DNA from: Folioceros fuciformis
Taxonomy: Eukaryota
DNA length: 43,152 nt
Reading direction: 5' to 3'
Assembly: GCA_049999805.1 (NCBI GenBank)
Contig: JBNGIO010005873.1
Coordinates: 100,765-143,916 of the forward strand
The notes below the pieces were generated by a model, which did no database searches, was not told where the DNA came from, and was given only the letters and a program-made list of their open reading frames with translations. Below, piece by piece: positions 11,154 through 40,823 of this stretch; within the stretch, counting starts at the first letter, position 1; each line of letters starts with the position of its first letter. The translations under genes and the position numbers were made by a program.

Positions 11154-12759
11154 ATGAAGCCGAATGCGATGGTGCGGCGGCCGGCGGAAGGCTGCATCCA
11201 ACTGGTCATGGCGGGGTTGCTGATAGGGGGTAGCCTGCTGACGCTGCTAGCCCTACTCTGGCCCTCGTTGCTGCCTGAGTCGGAGTCCGGGTCTGGGTCC
11301 GGGTCCGAGTCCGGGTCCGGGTCCGGGTCCGGAGCCGGAGCCGGAACCGGAGCGGGTCGCTGCTGGCCTCGGAAGCAGGCTCCCGATTCCCAGGAGCAGG
11401 GAAGCCTGGGAGGCCACGGCCGGGTGCGGCAGTTCGCGGAGCACGGGCGGGTGTCCGCCCTCTTCGTGCAGATGGGCGCGTTCCGAGGCGGGGACAAGAC
11501 ATTCGCGGTGGTGGGTCTCTCCTCCCGCCGGCTGCATGACGTAGGCAACCCCTGGTTCCATTGCGCGTGGGAGGAGCCCGGGGAGCCGGAGGTGCTCGGC
11601 ACCGTCGAGGTGATGAAGCCAGACTGGCAGCTGGGCCGGATCTACACCGTCCTAGTGCTCAACTGCACCTTCCCGCGCCCGGTCGGGACGTCGAGGCCCG
11701 ATCGGGGCGGCTCCCTCCTACTCACGGCGGGCTATGGGGATTCCGACCGATTCTCCCCGCCGGAGACGTTCACGGCGCTGCAGGAGGCCCCGGGGGAGTA
11801 CAATCCCCGCCTCTACTCCGGAGAGGACCCCCCGCCGTTCGATTTCCTCTACTGCGGCTCGCCCTTGTTCGGAGACCTGAGCCCGCAGCAGATACGGGAA
11901 TGGATGGCGTACCATGTGCGCCTCTTCGGCCCTCGCTCCCTCTTCGTGTTGCACGACGCCGGTGGAGTGAACGACGGGGTCCGCCGTGTGATCGAGCCCT
12001 GGGAGCGCCTGGGCCGCGTTCTGGTGGAGAACGTGCGGAACCAGGCTCGGTACGATGGCTACTACTTTAACCAGTTCCTGGTGCTCAACGACTGCCTGCA
12101 CCGCGCCAGGTTCCTAGCGCCATGGGTCTTCTTCTTCGACGTGGACGAGTATGTGGCCGTGGCCCCCGGCACGACTCTCCCGGAAGTCATGGACGGGTTC
12201 ATAAACTACACCCAGGTGCTCTTCACGCAGAAGCTCATGTCCGTCCGGCTGTGCGCCGACGTCTGGCGAGGCTCCGTCCATAGGTACACATGAGAAGGGA
12301 TCTGGACGAGGTCGCGGTGTGTGTGCGAGCGATATGGGATAATCGTGACTTCGCTCATGGCGTTGGTATTGCTGTTGTTTGTATGACAGGGATGCGGATC
12401 ACTGGACGGTGGAGAAGCTGGAGTACAGGGAGGTGGTGCCGGCGGGGAAGGTGCTGGCAGTCAAGTACGCAGTGCAGCCGAGGAATGTGTTCGCCACCGG
12501 CGTGCATCGCACAGAGCAGTTTTTGGGATTGAGCACAATTGCTGAGCCGGACAGATTGCAGTACTACCATTTCCATGGCGGCATCAACAACAGGGGGCAG
12601 GTGTGCTTGGAATTCCCTTCGCAGGATCCCACCAACTCCTCACTTTTCCGGAGCTTGAGAGGCGGGGCCTTCGAGTTCGATGACGGCTTGGCTCGCTCCA
12701 TTCCCTCAGTTCGCGAGTTTGAGCTGGAAACCGTAGGACGGCAGCCCTTCGTTCCATGA
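11154..12759 (+). CDS. GALS: Glycosyltransferase family 92, galactan beta-1,4-galactosyltransferase (GALS-like), 2 exons (11154-12283, 12390-12759)
   Basis: Type II N-terminal TM segment; LFVQMGAFRGG, FAVVGLSS, PDWQLGRIYTV, YCGSPLFGDL, REWMAYH, HDAGG, DCLHRARF, FFFDVDEY (DxD), KYAVQPRNVFATGVH, YYHFHG. Confidence 0.93.
11277..11352 (+). repeat. Hexanucleotide repeat encoding a (Ser-Gly/Ala-Gly)n stem linker in GALS
   Basis: (tccggg)n and (gccgga)n encode ESESGSGSGSESGSGSGSGAGAGTG. Confidence 0.9.
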
Positions 12760-16982: not shown

Positions 16983-19967
16983 TCAGTCACAGTTCGGTGG
17001 TAGTATCATAGTGCACTCCCCTTTGACCGTCTCCAGCAATTTCTCCAGCTCGGCATACAACTGACTTCTATCTGAATGCCTTTTATCTTCAACAGTAAAT
17101 GAGTGCACCCCATTTTCCAATTCCATCCACGTGCGACCAGGTTCTTTCTTCATACCTGTTCCTTGCATAATCCTTCTGATGTGCGCACTTTCTTCCAGTT
17201 TGCCATTCAAAGTGTAGATGTCAGCTATCATAACATAAGCCGCAACTTCCGTTGCATCTAACTCCAGCACGGCCTCAAAAGAAGATATTCCAAAATCGAT
17301 ATTCCCATGGGTTCGGCAAGCTCCAAGCAAAGTCAAGTGCACATCAATCTCAGGAGACATCGGCATATTGTTGATAAAGGCCACTGCTTCAGACAGCAAC
17401 CCGGCACGGCCAAGGAGGTCGACCATGCAAACATAATGCTCCATCTCTGGTCTGATGCAATATACCTCTGACATGGAGTGGAACAGGGTGCAGGCCTCGT
17501 CCAACAAACCACAGTGGCTGCAGGCAGAAAGCAAGCTGACAAAGGTGGCGGCATCTGGAAGCATGTCATCAGCTTGCATGTCTTGAAACAGTTGAAGTGC
17601 ATCCATCGCACGACCATGCTGGGCGTAGCCTGCAATCATGGAATTCCAGGACACCACATTCTTCACTGGCAAGATATCAAAGACAATCCGTGCCTCTTCC
17701 CAACTCCCACATTTGGCATACATGTCAACAAGGGCGCTTGAGATGAACAGATCTGTCTCTAACCCACACCTCTTGATCTCAGAGTGAATAAGCTTGCCTT
17801 GACTTAGTGCTGCAACACTAGAACATGCGTTCAAGATGCTGAGAAATGTATACTTGTCTGGCTGCAAGTCCTCCCTGTGCAGTTGGTGATACATTTGAAG
17901 GACGTCAGCGCCCAGACCATGGTTAGCAAAGCCTGTTAACATAACGTTCCAAGTCACTAAGCTCGGCCTTGGAACACTACAAAAGACACTGTACGCATCC
18001 TCCGGGCTCCCCAACTTAGCAAACATGTCAATGACCGTACTAACTACAGATTCATTCTGATCAAGTCCAAACTCTTTCACCTGGGCATACATAAGCTTTC
18101 CGTACTGAAGAGATCCCATGTTGGCACATGCCTTCAAAATACTCATGAACGTTACTTGATTGGGCTGAATACCCTGGACTGGCATTTGTTCAAAGAGTTC
18201 TATAGCAATCGATCCATAACCATGCTCGACACACCCACCAATCATAGCGTTCCATGTACCCACATCTCTGGTGTGAACTCTGTCAAACACTGCGCGTGCA
18301 TCCTCCAGGCTGCCGCAACTGGAAAACATGTGTATTAAAGCATTGCCAATCTCATCTTTCGATTCAAGACACCTTTCGATAATCTCTGCACAAATAAGCT
18401 TCCCTTGCTCCAGACATGCCATGGTGGAGCATGCCTTCATGACAATCAAGAGGGTGACTTTATCTGGAATCATGCCTTGCTTTCCAATTTCATAGAATAG
18501 TTGAATAGCCTCGTGGCACAACCCATGCTGGGCATATCCCGCCACTATCGCATTCCACGCAGCCAAACTGGTTTTACCCCACGACTCAAACAAATTCCTT
18601 GCATCATCTACACTCCCACATTTGGCGTACATATCAATCAGGCTGGTAACCAGGTACAAGTCTGGCTCACAACCACGTTTCGCAACAGATAGATGGACCA
18701 GCTTGCCTTGCTCCAAGGCAGCTATATTTGAACAGGCCTTCAATACACTGAGCAGGGTCACATGATTTGTCTCCAGGCCCACCTGTTGCAAATCGTGGTA
18801 CAGATTTACAGCTTCGCAACAAAACCCATGTTGAGCATAAGCCTCAATCATTGTTGTCCAGCTCACCAAATCTTTTCTTGTTAACGTGTGGAATACATCA
18901 CAAGCATCTACCAGACTCCCACATTTAGAGTACATGTCAATGAGACTATTCCCCACCAGCAGGTCTAACACAAAACCAGCTTGTAAGAGCTGAGTATGAA
19001 GTGCCCTGCCGTCATCCAGGGCTGCAATACTAGAACATGCTTTGAAGATGCTCACGAGAACAAGGCTATCAGGTTTCAGGCCCTCCTTCAACATCTGTCG
19101 GAACAGTTGAAGGGCCTCATGACCATCGCCCCTTTGGACATATCCCGAGGTCATGGTTGTCCATGTTACCACACTTTTCACAGGCATTCTCTCAAAGACA
19201 ATACGTGCATCTTCCAAGCTGCCACACTGGAGATACATTGCAACAAGTGCACTTCCAACAAATACATCGGATTCAACCCCTCTTCCCAAGATGTAGGCAT
19301 GAAGCCCCTTGCTTTCAGCGAGCGATCTCAAACCGGCGCAAGCTTTCACAAGGGCCACAAGTGTGTACCCGTTTGGTTCAAGACCCTGCTCTTGCATGAG
19401 ACGGAAGAGAGCCAGTGCCTCGAGACCACAGTCGTGCCGTGCATACCCTGCAACCATAGAAGTCCAGGTTACCAAGTTCTTAACAGTCAATCTGTCGAAA
19501 ACAGACCGCGCATCCCCGAGGCTCCCACATTTCGCATACATGTCAACCAGGGCGCTGCCTACAAACAGATCTGATTCATTGCCACTTTCGACAATGTGAC
19601 GATGAATCAGCTTGCCCTCCACGAAGGCTTTACCTCCAGAACAGGCCTTCAAAGCGGCGACGTAAACTCCGACGTCGGGTTTCAAATTCCGCTCTAGCAA
19701 GAGTCGAAAAATATTCAGGGCTTGCTCAGTCTGTCCCTCCCTGGCGTGAGCTGCAATGGCCTCCTGCGCCCAGGCCAAACGGTTCCAGGGAGACCCTGCA
19801 CCAAGCCCACTATGTGCTTCCAGAAAATGGGAGGAGACGACACATTCCTGGCCCACGGCCCCAGAAAAATCCCTACGCTGTCCCCTGAGAAGTTTCCAAG
19901 AAAGAACTGGCCTGCCAGCCACCACATTTGCCTGCTTGACGCAACAGCGCAGAAAACCACAGCGCAT
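16983..19967 (-). CDS. PLS-class pentatricopeptide repeat protein with E/E+ extension (PG box, no complete DYW domain); probable organellar C-to-U editing specificity factor
   Basis: Intronless 994-aa ORF with P-L-S triplets (SALVDMYAKCG, VTWT/NAMI, TFVSLLSACSH), HYVCMVDLLGRAG and MKKEPGRTWMEL, ending before any HxE/CxxC motif. Confidence 0.93.
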   Translation of the reverse strand: MRCGFLRCCVKQANVVAGRPVLSWKLLRGQRRDFSGAVGQECVVSSHFLEAHSGLGAGSPWNRLAWAQEAIAAHAREGQTEQALNIFRLLLERNLKPDVGVYVAALKACSGGKAFVEGKLIHRHIVESGNESDLFVGSALVDMYAKCGSLGDARSVFDRLTVKNLVTWTSMVAGYARHDCGLEALALFRLMQEQGLEPNGYTLVALVKACAGLRSLAESKGLHAYILGRGVESDVFVGSALVAMYLQCGSLEDARIVFERMPVKSVVTWTTMTSGYVQRGDGHEALQLFRQMLKEGLKPDSLVLVSIFKACSSIAALDDGRALHTQLLQAGFVLDLLVGNSLIDMYSKCGSLVDACDVFHTLTRKDLVSWTTMIEAYAQHGFCCEAVNLYHDLQQVGLETNHVTLLSVLKACSNIAALEQGKLVHLSVAKRGCEPDLYLVTSLIDMYAKCGSVDDARNLFESWGKTSLAAWNAIVAGYAQHGLCHEAIQLFYEIGKQGMIPDKVTLLIVMKACSTMACLEQGKLICAEIIERCLESKDEIGNALIHMFSSCGSLEDARAVFDRVHTRDVGTWNAMIGGCVEHGYGSIAIELFEQMPVQGIQPNQVTFMSILKACANMGSLQYGKLMYAQVKEFGLDQNESVVSTVIDMFAKLGSPEDAYSVFCSVPRPSLVTWNVMLTGFANHGLGADVLQMYHQLHREDLQPDKYTFLSILNACSSVAALSQGKLIHSEIKRCGLETDLFISSALVDMYAKCGSWEEARIVFDILPVKNVVSWNSMIAGYAQHGRAMDALQLFQDMQADDMLPDAATFVSLLSACSHCGLLDEACTLFHSMSEVYCIRPEMEHYVCMVDLLGRAGLLSEAVAFINNMPMSPEIDVHLTLLGACRTHGNIDFGISSFEAVLELDATEVAAYVMIADIYTLNGKLEESAHIRRIMQGTGMKKEPGRTWMELENGVHSFTVEDKRHSDRSQLYAELEKLLETVKGECTMILPPNCD

Positions 19968-20966
19968 CCTGGTAACTGCGGCAGCCCCTTGTTACGCCAT
20001 GGGATCCCGGTATCGCTGAAGGGACTCATCGCCTCTACGACGATGCAGAAACACTGCCGGTTGTTCACTGAAGCGCTAGCAACACTTTGAGGCAGGCAGC
20101 TTGCTCACGCGCCAAGTGAATTAGGGTTCACGGCGCCGAGCGTGGGCGGTTCAGGTGGACGTCTAGGCCCTTCCAGCCAAATATGAAATAACCCACCTTT
20201 CGTAGGAGGTCTTTCTAGTTGGGCTTCAACGTTTAGTATCTCACTTTCCTTGCAGAATCAAAACCCACTGACTCGGTACCCGAAATCGGCCTCGGAGGGA
20301 TCCTTGAAAGCTGACCCTCGAAAAGACTCCCGAGAAGGCCTTCAACGTTTTGCACCGTGCTCGGCATACTGGCTTGAAGGAGAACACATATCTGCTTGCT
20401 TCGTTTGGGTTGTCCCGTCCCCTGCACGGGAGCTATGGTTTGTGGCTGTCTTTTGCGTTCAGCAGTCCAGTCCATTTGACAAGAGGGCCGACATCATGAA
20501 CTGACAGAAGAAATTGGCGCTGCATGGAAAGGGAGTTCAGAACGTTGGGTTGGGAATGTGGGATTGGATTGATCTCAACCAGGTGCACATGAAAATAATC
20601 TCGAATGGATCTATTCAAAATCCTTTCAATGAAGGGAGTCCTTTACAATTAGGAAACAGCCACTGATAGGGGCTGGAAAGAAATCTCGAAAATCTTGCCA
20701 CGATCTCTGAGACATAAGTTAGCAAGGTCATACAGTCCTTCAACTTGAAAGAGCTCCCACCGCCTCACTCAGGATTTCGCAGTTCTTCCGCCCGGAGGAT
20801 ATCCGGTCGGTGCAGATGAGGGAGCAACGGGGGAAGCCCGTTGGAGTCAGGACGCTGCTGGGGTTGTACGCTAAGTCTGTCAATCACGGATGAATCGATG
20901 GTAAGTTCAGAGAACGAAGTACCTGTGCAGTGCAGAGCCAGAACGCTCGCACGGATGACCACCTGC

Positions 20967-21707
20967 TCAATACTTGGGATACGCGGGAGGGGTCTGGCTG
21001 TAGGGGGCAGGAGGAGACGTCTCCTCAGGCTTCTCGTACGAAACGGCTGGGGATTGGTTGTAGGGAGGAGGAGGAGGAGGAGGAGGGGCCTGAAAGTAGG
21101 CGGGTGGAGGAGCTTGGTATTTGTGGGGTGATGGAGTCTTGTAAACTGTCTTGGTCTTGTAATCTGGCTTCTTGTGAGGCTTTTCCTCTGGCTTTTTGTA
21201 TGGCTTCTTGTAGGGCTTCTCTTCTGGCTTCTTGTAGGGCTTCTCTTCTGGCTTCTTGTAGGGCTTCTCCTCTGGCTTCTTGTAGGGCTTCTCTTCTGGC
21301 TTCTTGTAGGGCTTCTCCTCTGGCATCTTGTAGGGCTTCTCCTCTGGCTTCTTGTAGGGCTTCTCCTCTGGCTTCTTGTAGGGCTTCTCCTCTGGCTTCT
21401 TGTATGGCTTCTCCTCTGGCTTCTTGTANNNNNNNNNNGGCTTCTCCTCTGGCTTCTTGTACGGCTTCTCCTCTGGCTTCTTGTATGGCTTCTCCTCTGG
21501 CTTCTTGTACGGCTTCTCGTCTGCCTTCGTATTGTCGTGGCGAGGCTTGTTGTAGTTGTCGTAGGGCTTCTCCTCAGGCTTCTTTACCTCCTTCTTGGGC
21601 TGGTCGAAGGCATAGGTATAGGCATAGTTATAGCCTGCACTGGCCTCCTGAACTACGGTGCCTGCAAGGAAGAACAGGAGAAGGAGGCCCAGCAGCCGGA
21701 GCCCCAT
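20967..21707 (-). CDS. Secreted Lys/Glu/Pro/Tyr-rich repetitive cell-wall protein (extensin/PRP-like)
   Basis: Signal peptide MGLRLLGLLLLFFLAGTVVQEASA, YNYAYTY, more than 12 KPEEKPYK repeats, a VYK motif and a poly-Pro/Tyr tail. N gap lies inside the repeat. Confidence 0.85.
   Translation of the reverse strand: MGLRLLGLLLLFFLAGTVVQEASAGYNYAYTYAFDQPKKEVKKPEEKPYDNYNKPRHDNTKADEKPYKKPEEKPYKKPEEKPYKKPEEKXXXXYKKPEEKPYKKPEEKPYKKPEEKPYKKPEEKPYKMPEEKPYKKPEEKPYKKPEEKPYKKPEEKPYKKPEEKPYKKPYKKPEEKPHKKPDYKTKTVYKTPSPHKYQAPPPAYFQAPPPPPPPPYNQSPAVSYEKPEETSPPAPYSQTPPAYPKY
21165..21520 (-). repeat. 24-bp coding tandem repeat (KPEEKPYK), interrupted by an assembly gap at 21429-21438
   Basis: Plus-strand unit ggcttctcctctggcttcttgtag repeated. 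Confidence 0.95.
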
Positions 21708-23415
21708 GTTTCCTACAATGGTGGCTGCAGAGCAGTGAACGAAATACAGCCCGGATGCGGACAGACGCTGGATGATGACAGTCCGCGCAGCCTATCCCCA
21801 TATATTGTGCAGCAAGATCTGCAGGCCTGTTGTGATCCAGAGACTAGACGACCACTGTAGCCATGCTTCCGCATGGCACATCAAGCCTCCAGGCTGTGAA
21901 CCAGCTAGTAGTCAAATGTGCAGTCAACATGTACAGAGGCAGCCAGCACTCGTCCCGATCCCAATGTGGCTGGCTACTTGCAGAAACACCAAGACTGCAG
22001 GTGAAGCAAGCATCCAAGCCGTTCCATATCGCAGGCGACTTAAACTAACAATCCTGTAGGGGAAATCGGCATACAGAGAGCTCTCACGGACCACGGACCT
22101 GCCCACTCTACAGCGCTGCGAGAGGCGGGTCGTGCGCACGTCACACCTCCAGACTTCATGGTTTAGGACCAAGCAGGCTTGTAAATCGCACAGGTACGGA
22201 ACACGTGATTTGCCTGATAATGCGCCACAGTCTCCATTGCCAGTGCGTAGTACACTCGTACTGTATGTACATATCACATCTCCTGGCACCACGGCCGCGC
22301 AGCTGCCTGAAAAATAGCGAGGGACGCATTGATTATTATAGCCACGGCCAAGTTCGGGGAATGTATCCTGAAAAAGATGGTGGCCTCAGTGCACACACTG
22401 GCAGGCCGCCACGTTCAGCATGCGACAGTGTCGAAAGATGATGACATCCGAGCGCCGTGGACGCATTGGAGTACTGTGGTGTATTTAACAAGAAGCCTGT
22501 TGCTGTTTCTCGCAGGTATGGACTCTGGAATAGGCTGGTGCCGCTGGTGAGGTTCATCAGTCTCCATGTTCATGGCCGCATTGAGTCTTACAGTGTCAAC
22601 CTTACAACTGGAAACTGGAAGGTCACATCTGGTCTGAAGATGAGAAGAACAGCATGAGCCTGAAGCTGTATATATACATGATCTCTACAAGTCTCCAGCG
22701 CTGATACGTGCCAGCTAGCTCCCTGACAGTGTATCTGTATGTATCGTCAAGGTGTACAATTCCTGGGCCAGCCGATCCGATCCATGCGCAATGTTCCGGG
22801 ATCGAGCAGCCCAAACCAGCGCGATGCATAAGGTGATACGAGGTTGGATAAGCCCCGAAATGGCGTTACCTGGAGCTGCATTCACCGACGGTGAAACAAA
22901 CGAACAAGATGCAAAACGTGTGTACACACATCCAGCAGGTTAAATTTGGTGAGAAGAGTGGATGGCATTGGGACCTCCCTCGTACGCGATGCTTGTCGAC
23001 TGTCACCAACAACATGTGAACGTGGGAAGGGAGCAGGGTGAGTCCCACGGGCCCGGTTGAGTGAGATCTGCTGGCTCGCGATCGGAGCTGAGATAAGCCA
23101 AGCTTTCTATTGCTAACAAGCTTGTGACACTTAAAAATCTGGCACCATTAATAATGGTGTCGATCTGGGTTGGAAATGTTAACGCCTCACATTCAGAAAG
23201 CGTATGCCCAGCCAGGTTTGTACAAGAGGTTGTAGCCTAAGCACTGAACGGGGCTGCAAAACAATGCGCTTGGTTGGACAAACCGGCCGGCAACCCGGCC
23301 AGCGCCACCACAGTAAGCTTATGTGTCCACTTCCGTGACCCTTTATGAATTCGGACGATCGGTCGACAAACAAATGGCCGATATCGATCGGTGCACGACT
23401 GCGCTCATTTCGAAA

Positions 23416-29985: not shown

Positions 29986-32943
29986 TCACGGTCGACCCTT
30001 ACAACTGCAACAACCAGCTGCGAATCGATGCACACGGTATCCATCCCTCACAACAATGTCTCGCTGTTCAAGCCTTGACATTATCTCTGTGGAACTGTGG
30101 CAGTCACTGCACATGCGGAGATTCTTCGTCACCATCAGTGGTGTCCCACTCGGAGTGTTCAAGAGGCCAAACGCCAGAGCTAGCTTCTCAGCATGTCCAC
30201 AAAGCACATCTTCCTTTTCCTTTTCAGACATTGGCTGAAACACGAACTCTGCGTGAGGAACGGAGATTGGCTTCAACACCAACTTCGTGTGAGGTATGTG
30301 GCCTCCTTCCTGCTTCAGACGTGCGTTCGTTCTCTCTACCTGAAGTGCAATATCCTCCCTTTTTTCTCCCACCACAAATCTATGTATTTCATTATTCACC
30401 TCTATGGTTGCCACCGCAGGCTTCTTGTTAGCTCCTAACATCATTCGCTGTTTTTCAATCCTGTCTACATCAGTCCACCTACCTGCATTGGCGTAGGCAC
30501 TCGCCATGAGCACATATGCGGGAGCCTCTTGTGGGTCCAGCCTGACAATGCTTTCAAAACACCACCTGGCCCTCTCTACATCCCTGTGACTTTTGCAGGC
30601 ATTCAACAAAGACTTCAATCCCACAACATTACTTTGAGTCTCGGATGATAAGCGCATCTTCTCTTCTAGCATCTTCTCTGCCTCATCTAGATGGCCTGCA
30701 CGCCCAAGAAGATCAATCATGCAATTATAATGCTCAAGACTAGGTGTGATACCATGCTGTTTAGCCATGGAATCAAAGTACTTGCGTCCATCATCGACCA
30801 GTCCCCCATGACTGCATGCCACTAGTAGGCAAGTAAAAGTAACATCATTAGGCTGAATTCCAGCAACCAACATCTCCTCAAAACAAGCTAGAGCCTTGTG
30901 ACCCTCATCACAAGTACCATATCCAGCTATCAGGGCGGTCCATGTCACCACATCTTTTGCGTCCATGCTGTCAAAAACCTGGCGAGCGTCTTCCACTTCC
31001 CCGCATTTTACATACATGTCTACGAGGCTGTTGCCCACCACTATGTTGTCAAACAGCCTTCTCTCCACAATCTGTGAGTGCAGCTGCCTTCCCTTCTGTA
31101 AAGCACCAGTGTTTGCACAGGCCTTCAGAAGGCAAGCAAAAGTAACAGGGTTAGCTAAGATGAGACCACTTTTTTCCATTTGTTCATACACCACAAACGC
31201 CTCTTGGCAGACTCCTTCCTGTGCATACCCACATTTTGCATACATGTCCACCAGGCAGTTCCCCAACACTACATCATCAAGTAGTCCTCTTTCGACAATC
31301 TGTGAGTGCAGGTGCCTGCCCTTCTCTATAGCACCAGTGCTTGCACAGGCATTCAGAAGGCAACAGAAGGTAACACGGTCAGCCAAAATCAGGCCCTCCT
31401 CCTCCATTTGTCCATAGAGGGCAAGTGCCTCATGTCCGAGCCCTTGCTGGGCATACCCAGCCATCAGGGCATTCCATGTCACTACATTCTTTGTGTTCAT
31501 GCTGTCAAAAACCTGGCGTGCATCTTTGAGTTCACCATACTTCGCAAACCCAGATATCAGTGCATTCCATGTCACCACATCCTTCGCGGCCATGTGGTCA
31601 AAAACTTGGCGAGCCGCTTTCAGTTCCCCACATTTCGCGTACATGTCCACCAGGGCATTGCCAACAAATAAGTTTGTAGGAATGCCACTCTGCAGTACAT
31701 CGTAGTGCACTTTTCTCCCGGATTCCAAGTCACCGGCAAATGCACACGCCTGAAGGGCAGCTACAAAGACGTGAGCATCCGCCTTGACTCCTGACCTACG
31801 CATCTCATGATACAGTCGTATGGCCTCACTAGGTCTCCCTTGCTTAGCACAAGCGGTCATTATGGAGGACCACATGAAAGCATCTGGTTTGCCCACCCTG
31901 CTGAGCACATCCATGGCCTTGTCTAGCCGACCTCCACCTGCATACATGCGCAAGATCTGGTTCCCCAAATACGCATTCGACTCGTATCCAAGTTTGACAA
32001 TGAGCTCATGAACTCGTCGACCCACGACCAGATCCTTCTTGGCTGTACACAGTTTCAGCACAGGGTAGAACAGAGACTCAGAACCGGGAGAGTCTGTGAG
32101 CGCTAGAGATTCCAGGGCTCCAACGGCCTCAAAAAGCTTCCCCTGTTGACATAACATGTTCACGGTAATAGCAGTGACAACACCCGTTTCCGATCCTGCA
32201 CACCTTTCACGTTCAGGCTTATTCTGAGGGCTAGATTCAGAGGGAGAGGGACCATGAACCATCGGATGAGCAAGTGATGGGCTCCGTACACTGCTACAGC
32301 AGGATCCCATTTCTGAACCTGCACACCATACAGGTTCAGGATCGTCTGGAGAGCTGGACTTGGGAGGAGAGGCACCGTGAGGCATGAGCATATCCAAGGA
32401 GAAGAGTTGCTCATCAACCCAAGCTGGCTTAAACATGTTGTTCAACCACAACACCTCTCCAGACCCCTTGCGCCGGAAGTCAGGGTAACGGGAACTCTTC
32501 TTATGTCGTCTGTTGTCCCACCACATGGTAGGGTCCAGAAAAAATTGTTGCCACAAATGCTCCTGCTCCTGGCAACGACCATCGCTGGAAATCCCGTCCG
32601 TATCCTTTCTCAGGAGTGAGGGTGCTGCGCTCCTTACACTGCTGCACCTAGAGGCTTTGCTTGCCAGGGTTCGACTCCCTAAGATGAGGTTAGCAGGAGC
32701 TCCTCGTAGAATCCCAAAACACACACCAATTTGTTGGGTCTCACCTGAAATCCGATGAAATGCAAAGAAAAGAAAAGAAGCTTTAGCCTTGGCTATGGCC
32801 ATCGTTGAGGGACCGCTGTCGGAGGTGCATGACAAGACTAGACTGCTCACAAATGCGCCCCCGCTACGCACTCTAACCCACATCCCCCCACAGCAACCGG
32901 GCCAGGGTTGGTAGACTGACCTGGACGGTGAATGGCTGTGCAT
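29986..32943 (-). CDS. PLS-PPR protein with C-terminal DYW:KP (GRP-ending) deaminase-like domain and N-terminal PDF motif; candidate U-to-C RNA editing factor
   Basis: PLS repeats; KKPAVATIEV replaces the PG box; CGHAEKLA, KNLRMCSDCH, HRFAAGCCSCKGRP*. N-terminal LWQQFF..PTMWWDNR.HK..RYPDF..KGSGEVLWL. True start may be a downstream Met. Confidence 0.92.
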   Translation of the reverse strand: MHSHSPSRSVYQPWPGCCGGMWVRVRSGGAFVSSLVLSCTSDSGPSTMAIAKAKASFLFFAFHRISGETQQIGVCFGILRGAPANLILGSRTLASKASRCSSVRSAAPSLLRKDTDGISSDGRCQEQEHLWQQFFLDPTMWWDNRRHKKSSRYPDFRRKGSGEVLWLNNMFKPAWVDEQLFSLDMLMPHGASPPKSSSPDDPEPVWCAGSEMGSCCSSVRSPSLAHPMVHGPSPSESSPQNKPERERCAGSETGVVTAITVNMLCQQGKLFEAVGALESLALTDSPGSESLFYPVLKLCTAKKDLVVGRRVHELIVKLGYESNAYLGNQILRMYAGGGRLDKAMDVLSRVGKPDAFMWSSIMTACAKQGRPSEAIRLYHEMRRSGVKADAHVFVAALQACAFAGDLESGRKVHYDVLQSGIPTNLFVGNALVDMYAKCGELKAARQVFDHMAAKDVVTWNALISGFAKYGELKDARQVFDSMNTKNVVTWNALMAGYAQQGLGHEALALYGQMEEEGLILADRVTFCCLLNACASTGAIEKGRHLHSQIVERGLLDDVVLGNCLVDMYAKCGYAQEGVCQEAFVVYEQMEKSGLILANPVTFACLLKACANTGALQKGRQLHSQIVERRLFDNIVVGNSLVDMYVKCGEVEDARQVFDSMDAKDVVTWTALIAGYGTCDEGHKALACFEEMLVAGIQPNDVTFTCLLVACSHGGLVDDGRKYFDSMAKQHGITPSLEHYNCMIDLLGRAGHLDEAEKMLEEKMRLSSETQSNVVGLKSLLNACKSHRDVERARWCFESIVRLDPQEAPAYVLMASAYANAGRWTDVDRIEKQRMMLGANKKPAVATIEVNNEIHRFVVGEKREDIALQVERTNARLKQEGGHIPHTKLVLKPISVPHAEFVFQPMSEKEKEDVLCGHAEKLALAFGLLNTPSGTPLMVTKNLRMCSDCHSSTEIMSRLEQRDIVVRDGYRVHRFAAGCCSCKGRP

Positions 32944-33675
32944 ACAAAGCTGTTGAACATCGGGCGGTTCAGCTATGCTCAGGACGGAAATCGCTGCAGA
33001 ATAGCAAGGCTAGACTGCACCTGGAGAAAAATAGCACTAGGCACCTGCACCCCAATTGGACGCTGGCACCTGGACCTGGACCTAAACCTCGCCTGCATCG
33101 GAGAGCGCAGCATTGGCACCCTCTCCTACGCATGCTCATGGTTGATTTCGCTCAGCTAAGGTGAACTGGTGAAGAAGGAGGTCCTACCAAATTGGACAGA
33201 CTTGGCAGAGAAAGCTTCGAAGACTTTCGTGCCCTGTCCGAAGACTTCCTCAACATAACTCATCTCAGCGACTCAGAATGCTGCTATCGCTGCACATGCT
33301 AACTCCAGGCTTGGCGATCGACTACCTCCCGTGCCCGCGCCAGCAGATTTGGTGGTGGGATTTGGGCTAGACCTAAAGCCCAATCCTCAATGTGAGAGCT
33401 TTCTAGGCTTTATACAATGCGTTACAAGGAAAACTCATTCCCCCATTAGTTGTGTAAACAGGCCTAGTTCACGAAAAGGCCTCCATCTGGAATGAAGAAC
33501 CCTAAAAACAGGTATGCAGAGAGAGAAACCTTTCTGTGTCATTAATTAATTGCACACGTTTGGTCTCATTGTTTGACAATGCGGGTGTGACGTACGACCC
33601 AGTGACCCGTCGGGATCGAGTGGAATGGTCGCAGAGTGGGCGAGAGCTCCACCAGCTCTGGGATTGGGTGGCAGA

Positions 33676-35910
33676 CTAGTATTGCTGAATGGCCTCAATT
33701 CTGACGGGGACACCGTTTTTGGGGCATGGCAAACCCCTAAAGTCTCGGCGACTGTCTGGCTTGTCGACTGTCCACCTGTTTGAACACCAGCAGATCAGCA
33801 CCCCGTCAGTCAGCCCACTTAGATATATATCTACATATGCGGATCCGAACTGGGAGCGCATTTGAAAAGCTCTGGCGGTGCAAAGTGGTGGGGGCGCACC
33901 TGAACTTGAGCATCATATGATGCAACATCACTTTGATCTCCATTAGAGCCAGCTCCTTCCCAAGGCATAATCTTTGCCCGCCTCCAAATCCCAGCAGGGT
34001 GAAGGGCTTCGGCGGCACCTGTTCGTAGGCAGGGGACGCACAGTGTCACAAGATAGATCCAAGGATGTCCCACGGCTATCATGAGTCCGACATGACTGTA
34101 GCCATTCCTCGTGCTGAACTCAACTGCAAGCATCAGTCTGCTTACATCGAAGCGAGAGGGATTGAATGTCTTCGGGTCTTGGAAGATTTCTGGACTGTGG
34201 TGCACGTTGTGAGTGTCTAGCACGAGGTTCCAGCCTTTAGGGATATGGTATCCTGCATGTGGCATTTGTGTGAAAAGTAGACTGTCAGAAAGCTTCGAGG
34301 AAGTGATGGCCGCAGTCAAGCACTCGGTGGAAATCCAAACCGATGGCTATGCCGATGCAGCATACTCTTACCATTGAATGTGAAGTCCTCCTTTACCTGT
34401 CGATGCCACCAGAATTCCAGGGAAGCTATTCTGAGCGCCTCGTTGATCACCTGCACAAGGCAGAAAACTAAGAATCGTCTCCGGATACCGGGTTCCAGGA
34501 ATGGAGTAGAAAGAGAGGTTTGAAGGATATGAGTTTCACTTTCGTGGTATAGGTCATTGGTTGGCCAAGTTCGGCCCATGTAAGTGGCTCTCCAGGTTGT
34601 TTGTTTGCTCTCACTGCCCAATGCTCAGCCTACAAACATTGGTCCAAACAGAAGAAAGACATTGGTCCAATTAAAAAATTCCTTGCACATGAGGCCCGCC
34701 ATAGACCGGCCTCACGCTCACCAGCAGCTTCTCCTTGACGCTGGGATTCTCATGGAGCAGCTTGATAATCCAGGTGAGCGTGTTGGTGGATGTTTCGTGG
34801 CCGGCGAAGATGAGCGTGGTCAAATTGTCTCTCAGCTGCTCGTCGCTCAGGGCAGGCTTGTCGATGGACGAATCCGGGTCGACTGCGGTCATCATGTCCT
34901 TCAGAAGGTCGGTGCGAACAATTTTGCCGCTCCTTCTCAACGCAAACTCCGTGTCAAACATTTTTCTCAGCTTCCTTCTTGCCTGCATGCCCGGTCCCCT
35001 GCGTTGTTGTGACATGCACTCTTTCTGCCTATCTCTAGGGCAAGCAGAACAATGAGCTCCAAATTGGCATTGGCCCTGAGCTTCGAATTCGCACCTGCAT
35101 GGCCTTGTGGTACGGGAATCCAGGAAGATTGATGGGCACACTGAGCAAATTGGCACTCACGACCTCGGTGAGCTCCAGGCTCCTGTCACGCACTGCACCA
35201 GGGCCCCAGCTCAGCAACACTCCCGCGATCACATTGAAAGTGAACTGTGCATCGTGCGAGCAAGCAGCAGTCACACTGTTAATCACAATCCCCACGGCGG
35301 GTCGCGAACATTGCAATTTGCAGACAAGCGGTGAGATTCGCCCATTTCCTTCTCATGCACGCACCTTGGTGGCCTCGTGTTTGATCACAGGAACGTCTCC
35401 CGGTTTCCAGGAACTAAGCGTATCGAGAGCCGATTGCTCCACCAGCGGCAGGTACTTCCTAATGCCCTCGCCCATAAAGGCTTCGTTGAGCAATTTGCGA
35501 TAGAGCTTATGCCTGGGGCCGTGCACATTGATGAGGGACTCCTCGCCCATGAGCTTCCTCGCGGGAAGGAACTGGTGCGCCTGCACCAGCTTGTCCTCGC
35601 CGGTAATGAGCAGCTTGGCCGCCTCGGCACCCCTGAAAAACACGTACGGAGTCCCCAACATGTGCGACTTGAACACATTGCTGCCATACTTGCGGAAGCG
35701 CTTCATCCCGAATTCCTCCACATCCCCGGCCTTCAAGTGGGCCAGCACCGTAATCGTCTCACCCAACAGTGGGAAGCCCATGCTCCCCGGCAGGTGCTTG
35801 GACCCCTTGGGCGCCCAGATGCCCCACCGCCCCCAGCACCTCCACACCGGCCAGGCCACAGCCAGCACCGCTAACGCCACTCCAATCTGCACACCCAATG
35901 TCACCTCCAT
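33676..35910 (-). CDS. Cytochrome P450, CYP85 clan, 8 exons (approx. 35910-35365, 35244-35095, 34982-34722, 34629-34540, 34450-34372, 34252-34145, 34018-33900, 33775-33676)
   Basis: N-terminal TM, LPGSMGFPLLGET, VFKSHMLG, I-helix FAGHETS, EALR (ExxR), GYHIPKGW, FNPSRF, heme motif FGGGQRLCLG. Confidence 0.92.
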
Positions 35911-36183: not shown

Positions 36184-39100
36184 TTTATGCGAATTGCTCC
36201 GTAGTGAGATCCTTGGTAAGAATATCTGTAAGGGTCTGACTAGTGTGAACTTTGACAAGTTGTATCCTCTTGTCTTCCAACACCTTTCGAATGAAGTGAT
36301 ACTTCACTTTCTCATGTTTGGTCTTGGCATGAAACACTAGATTCTTTGCTAATTGGATACCACTCTGGCTATTACAATGCAACACTGGTAGCTCAACCTT
36401 AATCCCCAAGTCTACCACTAAACGAGCAAGCCTCAGTCACTACAACATACTCGGCCTTTGTGGTAGATAGCTTTATGCATGATTGCAAACGAGATCGCCA
36501 TGAGATTGTCCCTCCAATGCACATGAAGACATAACCTCATGTGGACCTCCTTTTGTCCATATCCCCTACATAATCAGCATCTGTATATCCCACGACAGAT
36601 GCATTTTCACTACCAAAACATATGCACAAAGCTTTTGTACCATTTAAATACCTTATAACTCCTTTTACTGCGTTCCAATGCTTCTTGTCAGGGTTTGATA
36701 TAAACTTACTAACCACTCCCACTGCAAAGGCAATGTCAAGACTTGTAGCAATCATTGCATACATCAAACTCCCTACAGTTGATGAGTATGGAACCTTCTC
36801 CATTTTAGCTTTGTCCTCCGCAGAGAATGGGCAATCCTTGCTCGAAAGTTTCACATGTGGAGGCAACGGAGTACTCAATACCTTCCCCTTCTCCATGTTG
36901 AAACGTTGAAGGACCCTGTTAATGTATTTAGTCTAAGACAAGTAAAGCAAATGCTTATGTCTATCTCGACGAATACGCATGCCAAGAATATGGCTAGCCT
37001 CTCCCAAGTATGTCATGTCAAAGCGAGCATTCAACTTTGACTTCAACGCTGAAATCTCATCACTGCTATTCCCATCAATTATCATATCATTCACATAAAG
37101 GACCAAAATGAATAAGCTTCCATCCTTAGCTTGCTTCGTATAGAAGCAATGATCCTCATCGCCATGTTTGTAGCCTTGAGAAAGCATAAATGAGTGGAAC
37201 TTGTAATACCACTCTCTGGGTGCCTGTTTCCAACCATAAAGGCTCTTCTTTAACCTGCACACCAAATTCTCTCTGCCCTTCTCAATGAAACCCTCTAGTT
37301 GCTGCATGTATACCTCTTCTTGGAGATCACCATGCAAAAATGCCGACTTCACATTCATTTGGACAAATTCCATGTCATTCCTCACAACCAAAGCAAGAAC
37401 ACATCGCAAAGTGGTCATTTTGACAACTGGTGAGAAAATCTCATCAAAGTCAATATCTTGCTGTTGCTTAAAACCCTTAGCAACCAATCGTGCCTTGTAC
37501 TTGGGTTTGCCATCATAGGGTATGACCTTCACCTTATACATCCATTTGCATGGTAATGCCTTCTTATCCCTAGGCAACCGAACCAACTCCCAAGTTCGGT
37601 TTCTATGGAGCGAATCCATCTACGATTGCATTGCCTTCTCCCACTTGTCCTCGTGAGTCAATGACATGGCCTCTTTGTAACAAGAGGGCTCCCCACAATC
37701 CGTCAGCATGACATAATCAAGAGATGCAACATACCTATCAGGAGGACATGAAGTCCATCCTGACCTACGAAACACATGCGCCTCAACCAAAGCTGGTTGC
37801 ACTCTCTCTTCTTCTACAAGTGGAGGAACAGGTTCCTGCACATCACGACGTTCAACCTGCCCGTGACGGTCAAGTCCATCTTCTTGGAAGACCACTCGTC
37901 GCACCTCCACAGTTGGAGTAGGCTTCTTGCGCACTTTGTTCTCATTGAAGAACACGTCATTGCTGCGAACAACCTTCTTGGCTTCTGGATCACATAAACG
38001 ATATACCATCTCACCAGAGTGACCATCGCCAAGAAAAATACATTTTTTGGACGTGGGTGCCAACTTGTCCCGAAACTTCTTTGAAACATGGTAATATGCC
38101 TTGCAGCCAAACACTCGTAGATGCTTGTAAGACGGCTTCTTTCCAGACCACAGCTCCTTTGGAACCTGCTTATTCACAGCCTTATCAAGAGATCTGTTAA
38201 TAAGATGCACCGCAATAGACACTGCTTCTGCCCCAAATCCGTTAGGCAATCCAAAGTTTCACGACAAACTACGCATCTCTCCTAGATGGTCCTGTTCATC
38301 CGTTCAGCCACACCATTTTGGGGAGGAGTATATGAGGCAGTCAATTCTCTCTTGATACCCTTGGAATCACATAATGACTCGAAAGCCTTCGAAACATACT
38401 CTCCCCCATTGTCTGTCCTTAAACACCTTAGTCGGAGGCTAGACTGATTCTCCACAAGGGTGACAAATTTCTGAAACACTGTCAGAACATCGTCCTTTTT
38501 CCTCAAAGGATAAACCCACACCTTGCGTGAGAAATCATCTATGAAAGGGACAAAATAAGATGCACTGCCTAATGATACAGTGGGCATAGGTCCACAAACG
38601 TCACTGTGAACCAATGCAAGAGGTCTACTTTTGTGTTTACCTCTTGCTCCATGTGGTGATTTCGTCTATTTCCCATACAAACGGTTCTCACACACGGAGA
38701 AATCGGAGAAGTAAAAAACAGGTACGTAACCAAAATGAGATAAGATCTTCATTCCTTTTTGAGACATATGTCCTAACCAACAATGCCACAGGGAAACATT
38801 TGGCTATTTCGTTACACAAATCACATGATCCTTGACAGTGGTTACGTGAAGTGAGTACAAACTGCCACACTTCGATCCATCAGTTAACACAAGAGAACCT
38901 TTGGAGATCTTCCAAGAACGATCTCCAAACCAACAGTGGTAGCCAGCATCATCCAACTGCCCTGTGCTAATCATGCTTTTGGTCAACTTCGGAACATGCC
39001 TAACATCCTTGAGTACGAATGAAGATCCATTGTCGAACTTGAGCTACACATCACCAACGCCTGCAATCTTGCATGCGTAGTTATTTCCAAGCCAAACACA

Positions 39101-40823
39101 TCCTTTCCTAGTAGCATCATAAGTGCTAAACCACTCCCTATGCGGAGTAACATGAAAAGATGCTCTAGAGTCAATCATCCAAATAGAGAATAAGTGACTC
39201 TCCACGGCTGTTAGTTGTGCAAAATGGAAGGAAGAAGAGGTAAGAACATCTCCATCATCAACAGAGTTCACCTCGTCACGCTTGACACATGGACTTTCCT
39301 TGTTGTCGCTCTGCTTCTTCTCGTTTCCTTTGTCCTTCCTGAACTTCTCGCAGTCCCTTCTGATGTGACCCTTTTTGTGACAATGATAACACTCAACATT
39401 GTTACGACTACGACATTTGCTACGGGAAAAAGTTTGCTCCTTGTACTTCCCCTTTGAAATGGACCTTCCTCTCACCATGAGGGCATTGGAACCTTTCGAA
39501 GGTTCCATATTCTTTCTGTTCACTTCTTCTGTTAACAGGCTATCTTCTACATTTACAATGGTGAGACTACTGGCAGGAGCGGAATTACTCAGAGTTGTAC
39601 GAAAGGAGTCCCAACTCTCTGGTAATGTGACCAATAGAAACATAACTCTCACAGAATCTGGGAATGAGATACCTTGAGATGAGAGCTAGCTGAAAATGAT
39701 ATTGAACTCATTAAGATGATCGGACATCCTCGTCCCTTCCTTCATCTTCAAATCCACCAGCTGTTTCAAACAGTACACTTGAGAAGCAGCACTTTGCTTC
39801 TCATAGAGGTCACACATCTTCTACCATAGCTCGTAACTTGTGGTCTTGTCTTTCACATTGAAGTAGACCGACTTCGAAAATGTTAGCATGATGGTAGATC
39901 TAGCAAGCTCATCTAGATCCTGCTACTCATCCTGAGTCATGCTAACTGGTTTCACACCTAGCAACTTTATGGGCTTGATCTGCTTTTTCTGCACTAGAAC
40001 ATTGTACACTTGTTCTTTCGAGAACGGGAAGTTAGTACCATTAAACTTCTCAATATTGAACATAACGTTTTTTGAGGACGTCATCATTCAAAATCGATAC
40101 AAATGAAACAAAGGCTAGTTAGAAATGGTCTAAATGTAATCTAGATTCTAAAAGTTATCTTTATGGTAATCACGCCTTATTCTGCATCGGCTGACACAAC
40201 TTGTAGACCTCAAACCATCGCATGAGTCTGTCCAGCACCACCGTTCTTTCCACGGCCGAATGCACTATTATTGCTGCCTTGCAGCATTCGGAACCCCATG
40301 ACAGCCTTTCTACTTCGCGGCGTCGACTGTCCTGCGACACTGGCTACCAAGGCTCGACGCGGTTTGACGCCTCCCTGCGCCCGTCTTCCTACGCCGAGCA
40401 TGGCAAGGCAGCCGTCCCCCCCAGCGGGACTGCTTGTGCTGTGGGGCTTATCCGCCCCGTGCCGATGGTGCGGCATCCGGCCTAGCGATCGCACGGCACG
40501 TCTGGGTGCCCCGCGGCCTGCGCTAGGCAGGGGGCCTAGCGCCCTACGCGTCGCGATAGCGCCCTCCCGGGTACCTCGCACTGGGGCAGGCACCACGTGC
40601 TGCGGAGTGGTGCGGCGGTGCCCTCCTAGGTGCCCCGCGTTGCCGCAGCCCATGCCTTAGCATGGCGGAGCTGGAGCTCCCTCCACCTCAGGCAGCAGGG
40701 TTGCCGCACACGAGCCCCCGAGATGCTGCCCTCACTTCGGAGCCTTCCTCACGACCTTGTTGCGCCTTTGTGCATCTTGTCTGCAGCACCTACAGCCATC
40801 ACCCTCTTGCTCCGCAACCTAAC

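What the first reader, a model, noticed from the sequence alone, without database searches (positions are those of the whole stretch)
32413..32562. OSB-type PDF (ssDNA-binding) motif fused ahead of the PPR array of a putative U-to-C editor
LWQQFFLDPTMWWDNRRHKKSSRYPDFRRKGSGEVLWL....PAWV closely fits the PDF motif (W.DNR..K....PDFK.K.....LWL) of plant organellar ssDNA-binding OSB proteins. It is in the same uninterrupted ORF as the PPR array and DYW:KP domain, separated by a Pro/Ser linker. Inference: it could tether editing to nucleoids or transcription bubbles, act as an RNA chaperone, or be a cofactor for reverse editing. I cannot confirm whether this fusion is already described.
Basis: partly seen in the sequence, partly recalled or inferred. 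Interest (0 to 1): 0.8.

Follow-up and report, generated by a model that had tools for sequence, protein, structure and literature searches.

The report
OSB-type PDF motif on PPR editor
A plant RNA-editing protein gene carries, ahead of its RNA-binding repeats, a real copy of the small DNA-binding motif known from organellar OSB proteins, and the same combination turns out to be common in mosses, liverworts, lycophytes and ferns rather than special to reverse (U-to-C) editing.

Summary
Window 32413-32562 (minus strand) encodes a genuine OSB-type PDF motif. It gave 621 HMMER hits at E<=1e-3. Of the 150 listed hits, 77 have the OSB layout (SSB-like fold, then PDF). The window copy keeps all 8 invariant and 9 of 10 near-invariant columns.

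The motif lies in one open 985-codon frame (29986-32943, minus). The order is: probable presequence, PDF, Pro/Ser linker, PLS-type PPR array, E motif, and a DYW domain with KP box, HAE and a C-terminal GRP. That is the hornwort "GRP" type of DYW:KP.

The proposed link to U-to-C editing is not supported.
- A profile of PPR-linked PDFs listed 120 proteins; 114 are PPR proteins and PDF precedes the repeats in 113.
- All 45 full DYW domains among them are canonical in type (42 HSE, 37 ending DYW).
- They come from Sphagnum, Calypogeia, Diphasiastrum and Adiantum.
- Designer GRP-type editors are reported to work without any PDF.

Best reading: a folded, selectively maintained single-strand nucleic-acid-binding accessory module, widespread in non-seed-plant PLS PPR proteins. 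Its target (RNA 5' of the PPR footprint, or nucleoid ssDNA) is untested. I found no paper describing the fusion, but three key papers were not readable.

The parts
29986..32943 (-). Whole open reading frame, 985 codons plus stop (stop-to-stop frame reaches 33009): presequence, PDF, linker, PPR array, E, DYW:KP (GRP type)
32800..32802 (-). Probable true start codon (Met48 of the ORF, MAIAKAK...). Inferred, not shown.
   Evidence: Contigs of related runs at >=85% likeness cover the gene up to about 32805-32830. Depth falls from 9380 (bin 32680-32863) to 378 (bin 32864-33047) in X2. Position.
32578..32799 (-). Probable organellar presequence (aa 49-122): Ser/Ala/Arg-rich, with acidic residues almost only in the last 16 residues. 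Poorly conserved: 14/75 and 20/75 identical to P0160 and P0128.
   Evidence: Targeting itself was not tested.
32371..32577 (-). Predicted fold: helix, three short strands, helix.
   Evidence: AlphaFold2 blocks 21-80 have pLDDT 85-93. 34/69 and 37/69 residues identical to P0160 and P0128.
32164..32370 (-). Pro/Ser-rich linker (aa 192-260) built partly from a 123-nt direct repeat (32183-32262 and 32306-32385, 71% alike). A 25-nt repeat (32274-32298) matches 32622-32646 upstream of the motif.
   Evidence: Only 7/69 and 5/69 residues identical to P0160 and P0128.
30589..32163 (-). PLS-type PPR array (aa 261-785)
   Evidence: Pfam PPR 9.1e-72 with 10 stretches; PPR_2 1.4e-68
30433..30588 (-). E motif region (aa 786-837; the Pfam E_motif match runs 786-848)
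29989..30432 (-). DYW:KP domain, GRP variant (aa 838-985): KKPAVA box at 30409-30426, HAEKLA at 30178-30195, CSDCH at 30097-30111, terminal GRP
   Evidence: Pfam DYW_deaminase 6.4e-32. Motifs and comparison with P0128, P0160 (GRP) and P0138, P0181 (canonical). Defining features from passages of PMC9478123 and PMC11845758.
30223..30267 (-). Insertion of about 13-15 residues (aa 893-907) inside the DYW domain, upstream of HAE, absent from relatives
   Evidence: Contigs of X2, X6 and X8 skip 41-45 nt here (table 5). P0128 and P0160 lack it.

Best explanation
The stretch is a bona fide OSB-type PDF motif: a small, independently folding domain rich in aromatic and basic residues. It was fused to the N-terminus of PLS-class PPR editing factors, and this gene is a hornwort-type (GRP) DYW:KP member of that fusion class. 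Shown: the homology, the domain order, the wide occurrence of the fusion, and conservation of the motif compared with its flanks. Inferred: translation probably starts at Met48; a roughly 80-residue presequence is removed on import; and the PDF domain remains as the first folded module of the mature protein. My committed mechanism is also inferred. The PDF module adds sequence-independent affinity for single-stranded nucleic acid next to the sequence-specific PPR tract. Most likely it holds the RNA on the 5' side of the PPR footprint. That placement follows because the N-terminal repeats read the 5' nucleotides, which is established knowledge of PPR-RNA recognition and was not tested here. This would help target capture whichever way the DYW domain edits. 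It is a general accessory of non-seed-plant PPR proteins, not a cofactor specific to U-to-C editing.
For: Homology: 621 hits at E<=1e-3. 77 of the 152 motif-bearing proteins in the local set have an SSB-like fold, which precedes the PDF copies in 76. One hit is named OSB3 by its source. All 8 invariant columns are kept.
Independent fold: pLDDT is 85-93 over residues 21-80 of the 95-aa piece and lower in the flanks.
Constraint: 34/69 and 37/69 residues are identical to two other GRP-type proteins. The presequence shows 14-20 of 75 and the linker 5-7 of 69. The one well-supported paralogue difference inside the core (32494) is synonymous, AGT to AGC.
Multi-copy: position 32494 is covered by 30, 67, 68 and 56 contigs carrying that variant letter in X1, X2, X6 and X8 at >=85% likeness.
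Generality: 12 other PDF-then-PPR proteins occur among the 150 representatives. 29 of 120 PPR homologues carry PDF. 114 of 120 profile hits are PPR proteins, with PDF before the repeats in 113 of 114 and 1-4 copies.
Position: in those 114 the motif core starts at a median residue 44.5 (middle half 40-81), which leaves room for a presequence.
Biochemistry from papers: the PDF motif of AtOSB1 is stated to be sufficient for ssDNA binding (passages of PMC6963530; PMC4166229).
Composition: the 49-residue core has 5 Trp, 4 Phe, 1 Tyr and 9 Arg/Lys.
Against: No binding data exist for any PPR-linked PDF.
The OSB proteins tested prefer ssDNA over dsDNA or RNA (passage of PMC4166229). This favours a DNA target over my RNA-clamp reading.
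Designer KP2 and KP3 edit without PDF, so the motif is dispensable for catalysis in E. coli.
Two other GRP-type proteins (P0169, P0172) show no PDF in their predicted ORFs, although those ORFs may be cut short at the N-terminus.
In this gene the PDF is about 70 residues from the first PPR hit, against a median of 7 in the 114 homologues. Its geometry relative to the RNA may therefore differ.
The start codon, expression and the mature N-terminus are not shown.
Confidence: 0.5

Rival explanations
1. Nucleoid tether. The PDF motif binds single-stranded organellar DNA, as it does in OSB proteins. This places the editing factor at nucleoids or transcription bubbles so that nascent RNA is edited co-transcriptionally.
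For: The only biochemistry reported for PDF is ssDNA binding, preferred over RNA (passages of PMC4166229 and PMC6963530). The residues invariant across OSB-type and PPR-type copies are the same. From my recall only, not from a call: OSB2 is a component of the plastid transcriptionally active chromosome.
Against: No localisation or binding data exist for any PDF-PPR protein. PPR-linked PDFs fall in three clades of their own, with supports of 80-87, apart from OSB copies. Their specificity may therefore have shifted. Many PPR editing factors work without such a tether.
Confidence: 0.22
2. KP-specific cofactor. The motif supports the reverse U-to-C reaction of DYW:KP domains.
For: This gene and two relatives (P0128, P0160) combine PDF with a GRP-type KP domain. 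Designer GRP editors without PDF reach only about 22-26% editing.
Against: 0 of 45 DYW domains in the profile-hit set are KP-like. The fusion is abundant in Sphagnum and Calypogeia, lineages outside those reported to have U-to-C editing or DYW:KP. Only 3 of 11 HAE-type proteins, against 27 of 110 others, carry it. KP2, KP3 and KP6 do U-to-C editing without it.
Confidence: 0.04
3. Protein-protein or self-association module. PDF mediates oligomerisation or recruits another editosome component rather than binding nucleic acid.
For: PDF occurs in 1-4 copies on PPR proteins and up to 13 stretches in PDF-only proteins, as interaction repeats often do. Seed-plant PPR editing factors rely on helper proteins (MORF), which are absent outside seed plants (passages of PMC13386178).
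Against: No interaction data exist. The published property is nucleic-acid binding. I ran no complex prediction.
Confidence: 0.12
4. Vestigial or cleaved in this particular gene. The motif is part of the removed presequence, or is a decaying remnant with no role in the mature protein.
For: It lies near the N-terminus. The linker shows duplication and decay, possibly a lost second PDF unit. The gene also has an unusual insertion in its DYW domain. No expression evidence was obtained.
Against: All invariant residues are intact. The motif is as conserved as the PPR tract between GRP-type relatives, while the flanks are not. It is predicted to fold. Over 100 homologues keep it in the same place.
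Confidence: 0.1

Closest known systems
PDF motif of plant organellar ssDNA-binding proteins OSB1-OSB4 (Zaegel et al. 2006; seen only through review passages in PMC6963530 and PMC4166229)
   Same: The same ~50-residue motif with the Pro-Asp-Phe signature and flanking conserved Trp, Phe, Arg and Lys. The sequence similarity is highly significant. Copy number varies (1-3 in OSB; 1-4 on PPR proteins).
   Different: In OSB proteins the motif follows an SSB-like OB fold at the C-terminus. Here there is no OB fold and the motif is N-terminal to a PPR array. PPR-linked copies fall in three clades of their own. Binding properties are unknown.
Hornwort 'GRP' variant of DYW:KP PPR proteins, and the designer editors KP2 and KP3 (PMC9478123, PMC11845758; Gerke et al. 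2020 not readable)
   Same: PLS array, E motifs, a DYW domain with a KP box, HAE, Met before the CxDCH, Glu in place of the canonical Lys after CxDCH, and a terminal GRP.
   Different: The published descriptions that I could read deal with the PLS tract and C-terminal domains only and mention no N-terminal PDF. This gene also has an insertion of about 13-15 residues in the DYW domain.
Unnamed PDF-PPR(-E/-DYW) proteins in public databases (e.g. P0138 Sphagnum compactum, P0181 Calypogeia fissa, P0113 Selaginella XP_024517303, P0153 Ceratopteris, P0125 Adiantum, many Diphasiastrum)
   Same: Identical architecture: a short N-terminal leader, 1-4 PDF motifs, then a PLS PPR array.
   Different: Their DYW domains, where present, are canonical (PG box, HSE, DYW). 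The gap from PDF to the first PPR hit is short (median 7 residues), against about 70 here.
MORF/RIP helper proteins of seed-plant editosomes
   Same: A possible functional analogy only: an accessory that improves RNA engagement by PLS PPR proteins. [quoted passage not shown] The distributions look complementary: MORF only in seed plants, and PDF-PPR seen here only outside seed plants.
   Different: No sequence or fold relation. MORF acts in trans, PDF in cis. The analogy is untested.

Membership tests
OSB-type PDF motif | About 50 residues with a conserved Pro-Asp-Phe signature | tested here: met
   YPDFRR lies within a 50-aa block. P49, D50 and F51 of the 95-aa piece fall in invariant or near-invariant columns. 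The definition comes from passages of PMC6963530.
OSB-type PDF motif | Significant sequence similarity to PDF copies of proteins with the OSB layout | tested here: met
   621 hits at E<=1e-3. 77 of 152 motif-bearing proteins have an SSB-like fold. P0047 is named OSB3 by its source.
OSB-type PDF motif | Binds single-stranded DNA | not testable with these tools
   Needs EMSA or similar. Only a literature statement for AtOSB1.
OSB protein family (whole protein) | SSB-like OB-fold domain N-terminal of the PDF motif(s) | tested here: not met
   No SSB match in Pfam at E<=1. The residues before the motif are a low-complexity leader. The protein carries the motif but is not an OSB.
PLS-class PPR editing factor with DYW domain | PPR array followed by an E motif and a DYW deaminase domain with the HxE...CxxC signature | tested here: met
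   Pfam PPR 9.1e-72, E_motif 2e-13, DYW_deaminase 6.4e-32. HAE and CSDCH are present.
DYW:KP subclass, GRP variant | Lys-Pro instead of Pro-Gly in the N-terminal box of the DYW domain | tested here: met
   KKPAVATIEV here, against K(E/Q)PGRTWIEV in the canonical P0138 and P0181. The criterion comes from passages of PMC11845758.
DYW:KP subclass, GRP variant | Last three residues Gly-Arg-Pro | tested here: met
   The ORF ends ...SCKGRP. The criterion comes from a passage of PMC9478123.
DYW:KP subclass, GRP variant | Conserved active-site lysine ('Lys88') | tested here: inconclusive
   A Lys lies four residues before the Met of NLRMC (TKNLRMC). That fits the paper's M92 numbering, but I did not align to the paper's own numbering, and its alignment is in a supplement.
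DYW:KP subclass, GRP variant | U-to-C editing activity | not testable with these tools
   Needs an editing assay. The insertion at aa 893-907 could matter.
PDF-PPR fusion class (database proteins; no name found in print) | One or more PDF motifs between a short leader and the first PPR repeat | tested here: met
   PDF at aa 123-191, PPR from aa 261. The same order holds in 113 of 114 profile-hit PPR proteins.

The most novel reading that the evidence does not exclude
The PDF motif is an ancestral, built-in helper of the land-plant editosome. It would be a cis-acting single-strand clamp that does for bryophyte, lycophyte and fern PLS PPR proteins what trans-acting MORF proteins do in seed plants. 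On this reading it was lost from PPR proteins when MORFs arose. That would explain the apparently complementary distributions, and appending it could improve designer C-to-U and U-to-C editors.
Probability: 0.15. Interest if true: 0.75.

Novelty: new variant of a known kind. Interest (0 to 1): 0.5.

Why it matters
PPR-DYW proteins are being engineered as programmable RNA base editors, and the natural U-to-C editors are still poorly understood. This analysis points to an accessory nucleic-acid-binding domain sitting on well over a hundred natural PLS PPR proteins. No Pfam family matched it here: nothing in this protein's N-terminus at E<=1, and no PDF entry in the precomputed Pfam lists of OSB-type hits.

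If the domain raises affinity, on-rate or sub-organellar targeting, it could be tested directly as an add-on to designer editors. It also links two fields usually treated apart: organellar DNA maintenance (OSB) and RNA editing (PPR). For this particular finding the sober message is that the motif is real but not KP-specific.

Tried and rejected
- Word-index search with residues 110-200 among proteins of 541-1724 aa gave no hit. It was superseded by the exhaustive search.
- No whole genome is held for the window, so I could not take a census of PDF against DYW type in this organism.
- Expression: no RNA holder was listed. The runs laid (X1, X2, X6, X8) are contigs of uncertain kind, and X1 also covers intergenic DNA. 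So there is no evidence on transcript start or expression either way.
- Fold: Foldseek against PDB gave no match at E<=0.001 (best 1.8). VIA-align 2 against 48,161 chains gave a best Z of 4.4 and none at 5 or more. A profile search of PDB sequences gave 0 hits at E<=1.
- Tree of 408 PDF copies over 65 columns (FastTree). PPR-linked copies form three clades, but the tree does not join them; the smallest enclosing set has 125 tips, 52 of them OSB. One fusion event or several therefore stays open.
- Literature searches:
  - 'PDF motif' + OSB: 3 papers.
  - 'PDF motif' + pentatricopeptide: 1 unrelated review.
  - 'PDF motif' alone: 5 papers, 3 relevant, none on PPR.
  - OSB + DYW: 407 papers, nothing relevant among the 15 listed.
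  - pentatricopeptide + OSB1 + fusion: 7 papers, none relevant by title or abstract.
  - 'organellar single-stranded DNA' + PPR + N-terminal + hornwort, at least 3 of the 4 terms: 68 papers, and none of the 15 listed holds the OSB term.
  - PMC13386178 and PMC7027989 contain no 'OSB'; PMC13386178 also has no 'PDF', and PMC7027989 has no 'single-stranded'.
- Not readable: Zaegel 2006, Gerke 2020 and Gutmann 2020 are not held, and supplements are closed. A description of the fusion there cannot be excluded.
- Earlier findings of this scan: nothing.
- No complex prediction was run, because I make no specific binding-partner claim.
- A second structure job for the full protein was not run, because the tool returns no coordinates from which domain packing could be judged.
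Full report
**What is there.**
Window 32413-32562 read on the minus strand gives EHLWQQFFLDPTMWWDNRRHKKSSRYPDFRRKGSGEVLWLNNMFKPAWVD. This is residues 127-176 of one uninterrupted ORF of 985 codons, 29986-32943 minus. Pfam finds 10 PPR stretches (9.1e-72), an E motif (aa 786-848) and a DYW_deaminase domain (aa 895-983, 6.4e-32). It finds nothing in the first ~300 residues, even at E<=1.

**Is the motif real?**
- phmmer with a 95-residue piece (window 32344-32628, minus) against 1.84 billion representative proteins returned 621 proteins at E<=1e-3, 185 at <=1e-10 and 17 at <=1e-30. Many hits have 2-13 matched stretches.
- From the stored hits I built a local HMM. Its consensus runs parallel to the window sequence over the whole ~57 residues.
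- I classified the 152 motif-bearing proteins:
  - 77 have an SSB-like OB fold, which precedes the PDF copies in 76.
  - 13 (query included) have the motif ahead of a PPR array.
  - 62 are PDF-only arrays or fragments; two of these (P0154, P0156) are PPR proteins added after the PPR scan.
- Pfam SSB matched the two OSB-like proteins that I scanned, P0028 and P0004, both below the curated cut-off.
- One hit is named by its source 'organellar single-stranded DNA binding protein 3'.
- In a 27-row alignment the window copy keeps all 8 invariant columns and 9 of 10 near-invariant ones; the consensus His after PDF-K is Arg here.

So this is an OSB-type PDF motif as the reviews define it: 50 residues, a Pro-Asp-Phe signature, 1-3 copies, and stated to be sufficient for ssDNA binding in AtOSB1 (passages of PMC6963530 and PMC4166229). 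The protein itself is not an OSB, because it has no OB fold.

**The C-terminal domain.**
Canonical copies (P0138, P0181) show K(E/Q)PGRTWIEV, HSEKLA, NLR(I/V)C, TATKFIS and a DYW end. The window protein shows KKPAVATIEV, HAEKLA, NLRMC, SSTEIMS and a GRP end, as do P0128 and P0160. Passages of PMC11845758 and PMC9478123 give the KP-for-PG pair as the defining feature. They name 'GRP' as one of two hornwort DYW:KP variants, and they mention Met for Val before the CxxC and Glu for the canonical Lys in GRP proteins. One oddity: about 13-15 extra residues (aa 893-907) lie upstream of HAE. P0128 and P0160 lack them, and contigs of related runs skip that stretch.

**Gene model.**
I could not show the start codon or expression. 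No RNA run is on record, and the laid runs are contigs. What the contigs do show:
- DNA at least 85% like the motif region is multi-copy. Contigs carrying the G variant at position 32494 number 30, 67, 68 and 56 in X1, X2, X6 and X8.
- Summed depth in the motif bins is of the same order as in much of the PPR part.
- Likeness among copies ends at about 32805-32830, just upstream of Met48 (codon 32800-32802). Depth drops about 25-fold in the next bin.

I therefore take Met48 as the likely start; this is an inference. From Met48 there are 80 residues before the motif core. They are rich in Ser, Ala and Arg, with acidic residues almost confined to the last 16, as expected of an organellar presequence (not tested). 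The one well-supported paralogue difference inside the core (32494) is synonymous.

Against the two other GRP-type proteins, identity by region is:

| Region | Identical to P0160 | Identical to P0128 |
|---|---|---|
| Presequence | 14/75 | 20/75 |
| PDF | 34/69 | 37/69 |
| Linker | 7/69 | 5/69 |
| PPR tract | 312/525 | 236/525 |
| DYW | 95/148 | 92/148 |

The PDF behaves as a constrained domain between two unconstrained spacers.

**Structure.**
AlphaFold2 on the 27-row alignment gives mean pLDDT 78.5 and pTM 0.60. Blocks of 85-93 cover residues 21-80, with lower flanks. The layout is helix 15-31, strands 36-38 and 51-53, a two-residue strand at 59-60, and helix 69-81. No solved relative was found with Foldseek, VIA-align 2 or a PDB sequence profile.

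**How general is the fusion?**
- Representatives. Twelve other PDF-then-PPR proteins appear among the 150 listed representatives. Their sources name Sphagnum compactum (P0138), Selaginella, Ceratopteris, Adiantum, Diphasiastrum and Pteridium. P0138 has a fully canonical DYW domain.
- PPR homologues. A search with the whole protein listed 120 PPR homologues, and 29 of them carry 1-3 N-terminal PDF copies.
  - By a crude typing, PDF occurs in 3 of 11 HAE-type, 6 of 47 other DYW-type and 21 of 63 proteins without DYW, query included.
  - This sample is biased, because the index words came from the first 500 residues, which include the motif. The 'other' class also includes HCE/HVE variants.
  - Two further GRP-type proteins (P0169, P0172) show no PDF, though ORFs called on short contigs may be cut short.
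- Profile search. A profile of PPR-linked PDFs, searched among longer proteins, gave 182 proteins at E<=1e-5, of which 120 were listed. By local scan:
  - 114 are PPR proteins, with PDF before the repeats in 113.
  - Copy numbers are 1 (82 proteins), 2 (25), 3 (6) and 4 (1).
  - 45 have a full DYW domain. None is KP-like: 42 have HSE, 3 were undetermined, and 37 end in DYW.
  - By my hand count of the listing, 37 are from Diphasiastrum complanatum, 54 from seven Sphagnum species, 6 from Calypogeia fissa, 1 from Adiantum and 16 are unnamed.
  - The six non-PPR rows include OSB-type proteins from Amborella, Rhodiola, Euphorbia and Adiantum.
- Seed plants. No seed-plant PPR protein with PDF appeared in any listing, but I saw only the top rows of each search.
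- Position. In the 114, the motif core starts at a median residue 44.5. The gap to the first PPR hit is a median 7 residues, against about 70 here.

**Origin of the long linker.**
Part of the linker comes from a 123-nt direct repeat. A 25-nt element is shared between the region upstream of the motif and the linker, 348 nt apart. This could be the remnant of a second PDF unit (my inference).

**Phylogeny of the motif.**
In a FastTree of 408 PDF copies over 65 columns, the label 'PPR-linked' needs only 10 changes. 50 of the 51 PPR-linked copies fall in three clades, with supports of 87, 83 and 80. Their few non-PPR members are short fragments of 147-164 aa, except one copy from the 280-aa P0073. 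The window copy sits with P0128, P0160, P0009 and fern copies. The three clades are not united in this tree, so one fusion event or several cannot be told apart.

**Mechanism.**
- Shown: homology to a motif reported to bind ssDNA, predicted independent folding, selective maintenance, a fixed position ahead of the PPR tract, and independence from the editing direction.
- Inferred: the motif stays in the mature protein and contributes sequence-independent single-strand binding.
- Committed reading: I favour an RNA clamp on the 5' side of the PPR footprint, because the N-terminal repeats read the 5' nucleotides (established PPR knowledge, not tested here).
- Main rival: nucleoid tethering through ssDNA fits the only published biochemistry better, since the OSB proteins tested prefer ssDNA to RNA. 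I rate it second.
- A KP-specific role is very unlikely, for two reasons. The first is the distribution above. The second is that designer KP2, KP3 and KP6, built from a PLS tract and C-terminal domains, perform U-to-C editing without the motif.

**Novelty.**
Both building blocks are known. I found no paper describing their fusion.
- A 2026 kingdom-wide survey of domain fusions in editing factors (PMC13386178) contains neither 'OSB' nor 'PDF'.
- The Anthoceros angustus genome paper (PMC7027989) contains neither 'OSB' nor 'single-stranded'.
- No Pfam family matched the motif here: nothing in this protein's N-terminus at E<=1, and the precomputed Pfam lists of OSB-type hits show no PDF entry. 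My inference is that Pfam-based surveys would therefore miss it.
- Zaegel 2006, Gerke 2020 and Gutmann 2020 and all supplements were not readable, so prior mention cannot be excluded.

MORF genes occur only in seed plants (passages of PMC13386178), while PDF-PPR proteins turned up here only outside seed plants. That is a suggestive but unproven complementarity, and it underlies the boldest reading.

**Verdict.**
This gene is one member of a large and apparently undescribed architecture class of PLS PPR proteins. Interest is moderate (0.5).

Noticed in passing
window 32164-32370 and 32622-32646: The Pro/Ser linker after the PDF motif contains a 123-nt direct repeat (71% alike). It also shares a 25-nt element with the region just upstream of the motif, 348 nt away. 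This is possibly the remnant of a second PDF unit whose motif was lost.
   Followed up: partly
window 30223-30267 (minus), aa 893-907: An insertion of about 13-15 residues inside the DYW:KP domain, upstream of HAE. It is absent from P0128 and P0160, and contigs of three related runs skip it. It could affect activity.
   Followed up: partly
window 16983-19991 (minus): A second long PLS-class PPR ORF (1002 codons) with an E motif. It has no DYW domain and no PDF motif, so not every PPR gene at this locus carries the motif.
   Followed up: yes
proteins P0056, P0004, P0012 (hits): PDF motifs occur in other contexts too. P0056 is a 1526-aa protein with three PDF stretches ahead of a kinesin motor domain. 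There are also PDF-only arrays of up to 11-13 copies.
   Followed up: partly
window 33831-35910 (minus): Pieces of a cytochrome P450 gene in several ORFs, i.e. with introns, directly upstream of the PPR gene.
   Followed up: partly
window 36537-39685 (minus): Ty1/copia-type retrotransposon remains: a reverse transcriptase RVT_2 match at 4.5e-62, split over adjacent frames.
   Followed up: partly
window 1132-2622 (plus) and 11145-12293 (plus): An ORF of the beta-lactamase / serine-hydrolase family (PF00144, 8.2e-62) and an ORF with a GT92 glycosyltransferase domain.
   Followed up: no
window 20765-21860, both strands: Five overlapping ORFs of 242-293 codons on both strands, with no Pfam match for the one tested. 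Unexplained.
   Followed up: no
whole window: The window holds 20 N and has 50.9% G+C.
   Followed up: no
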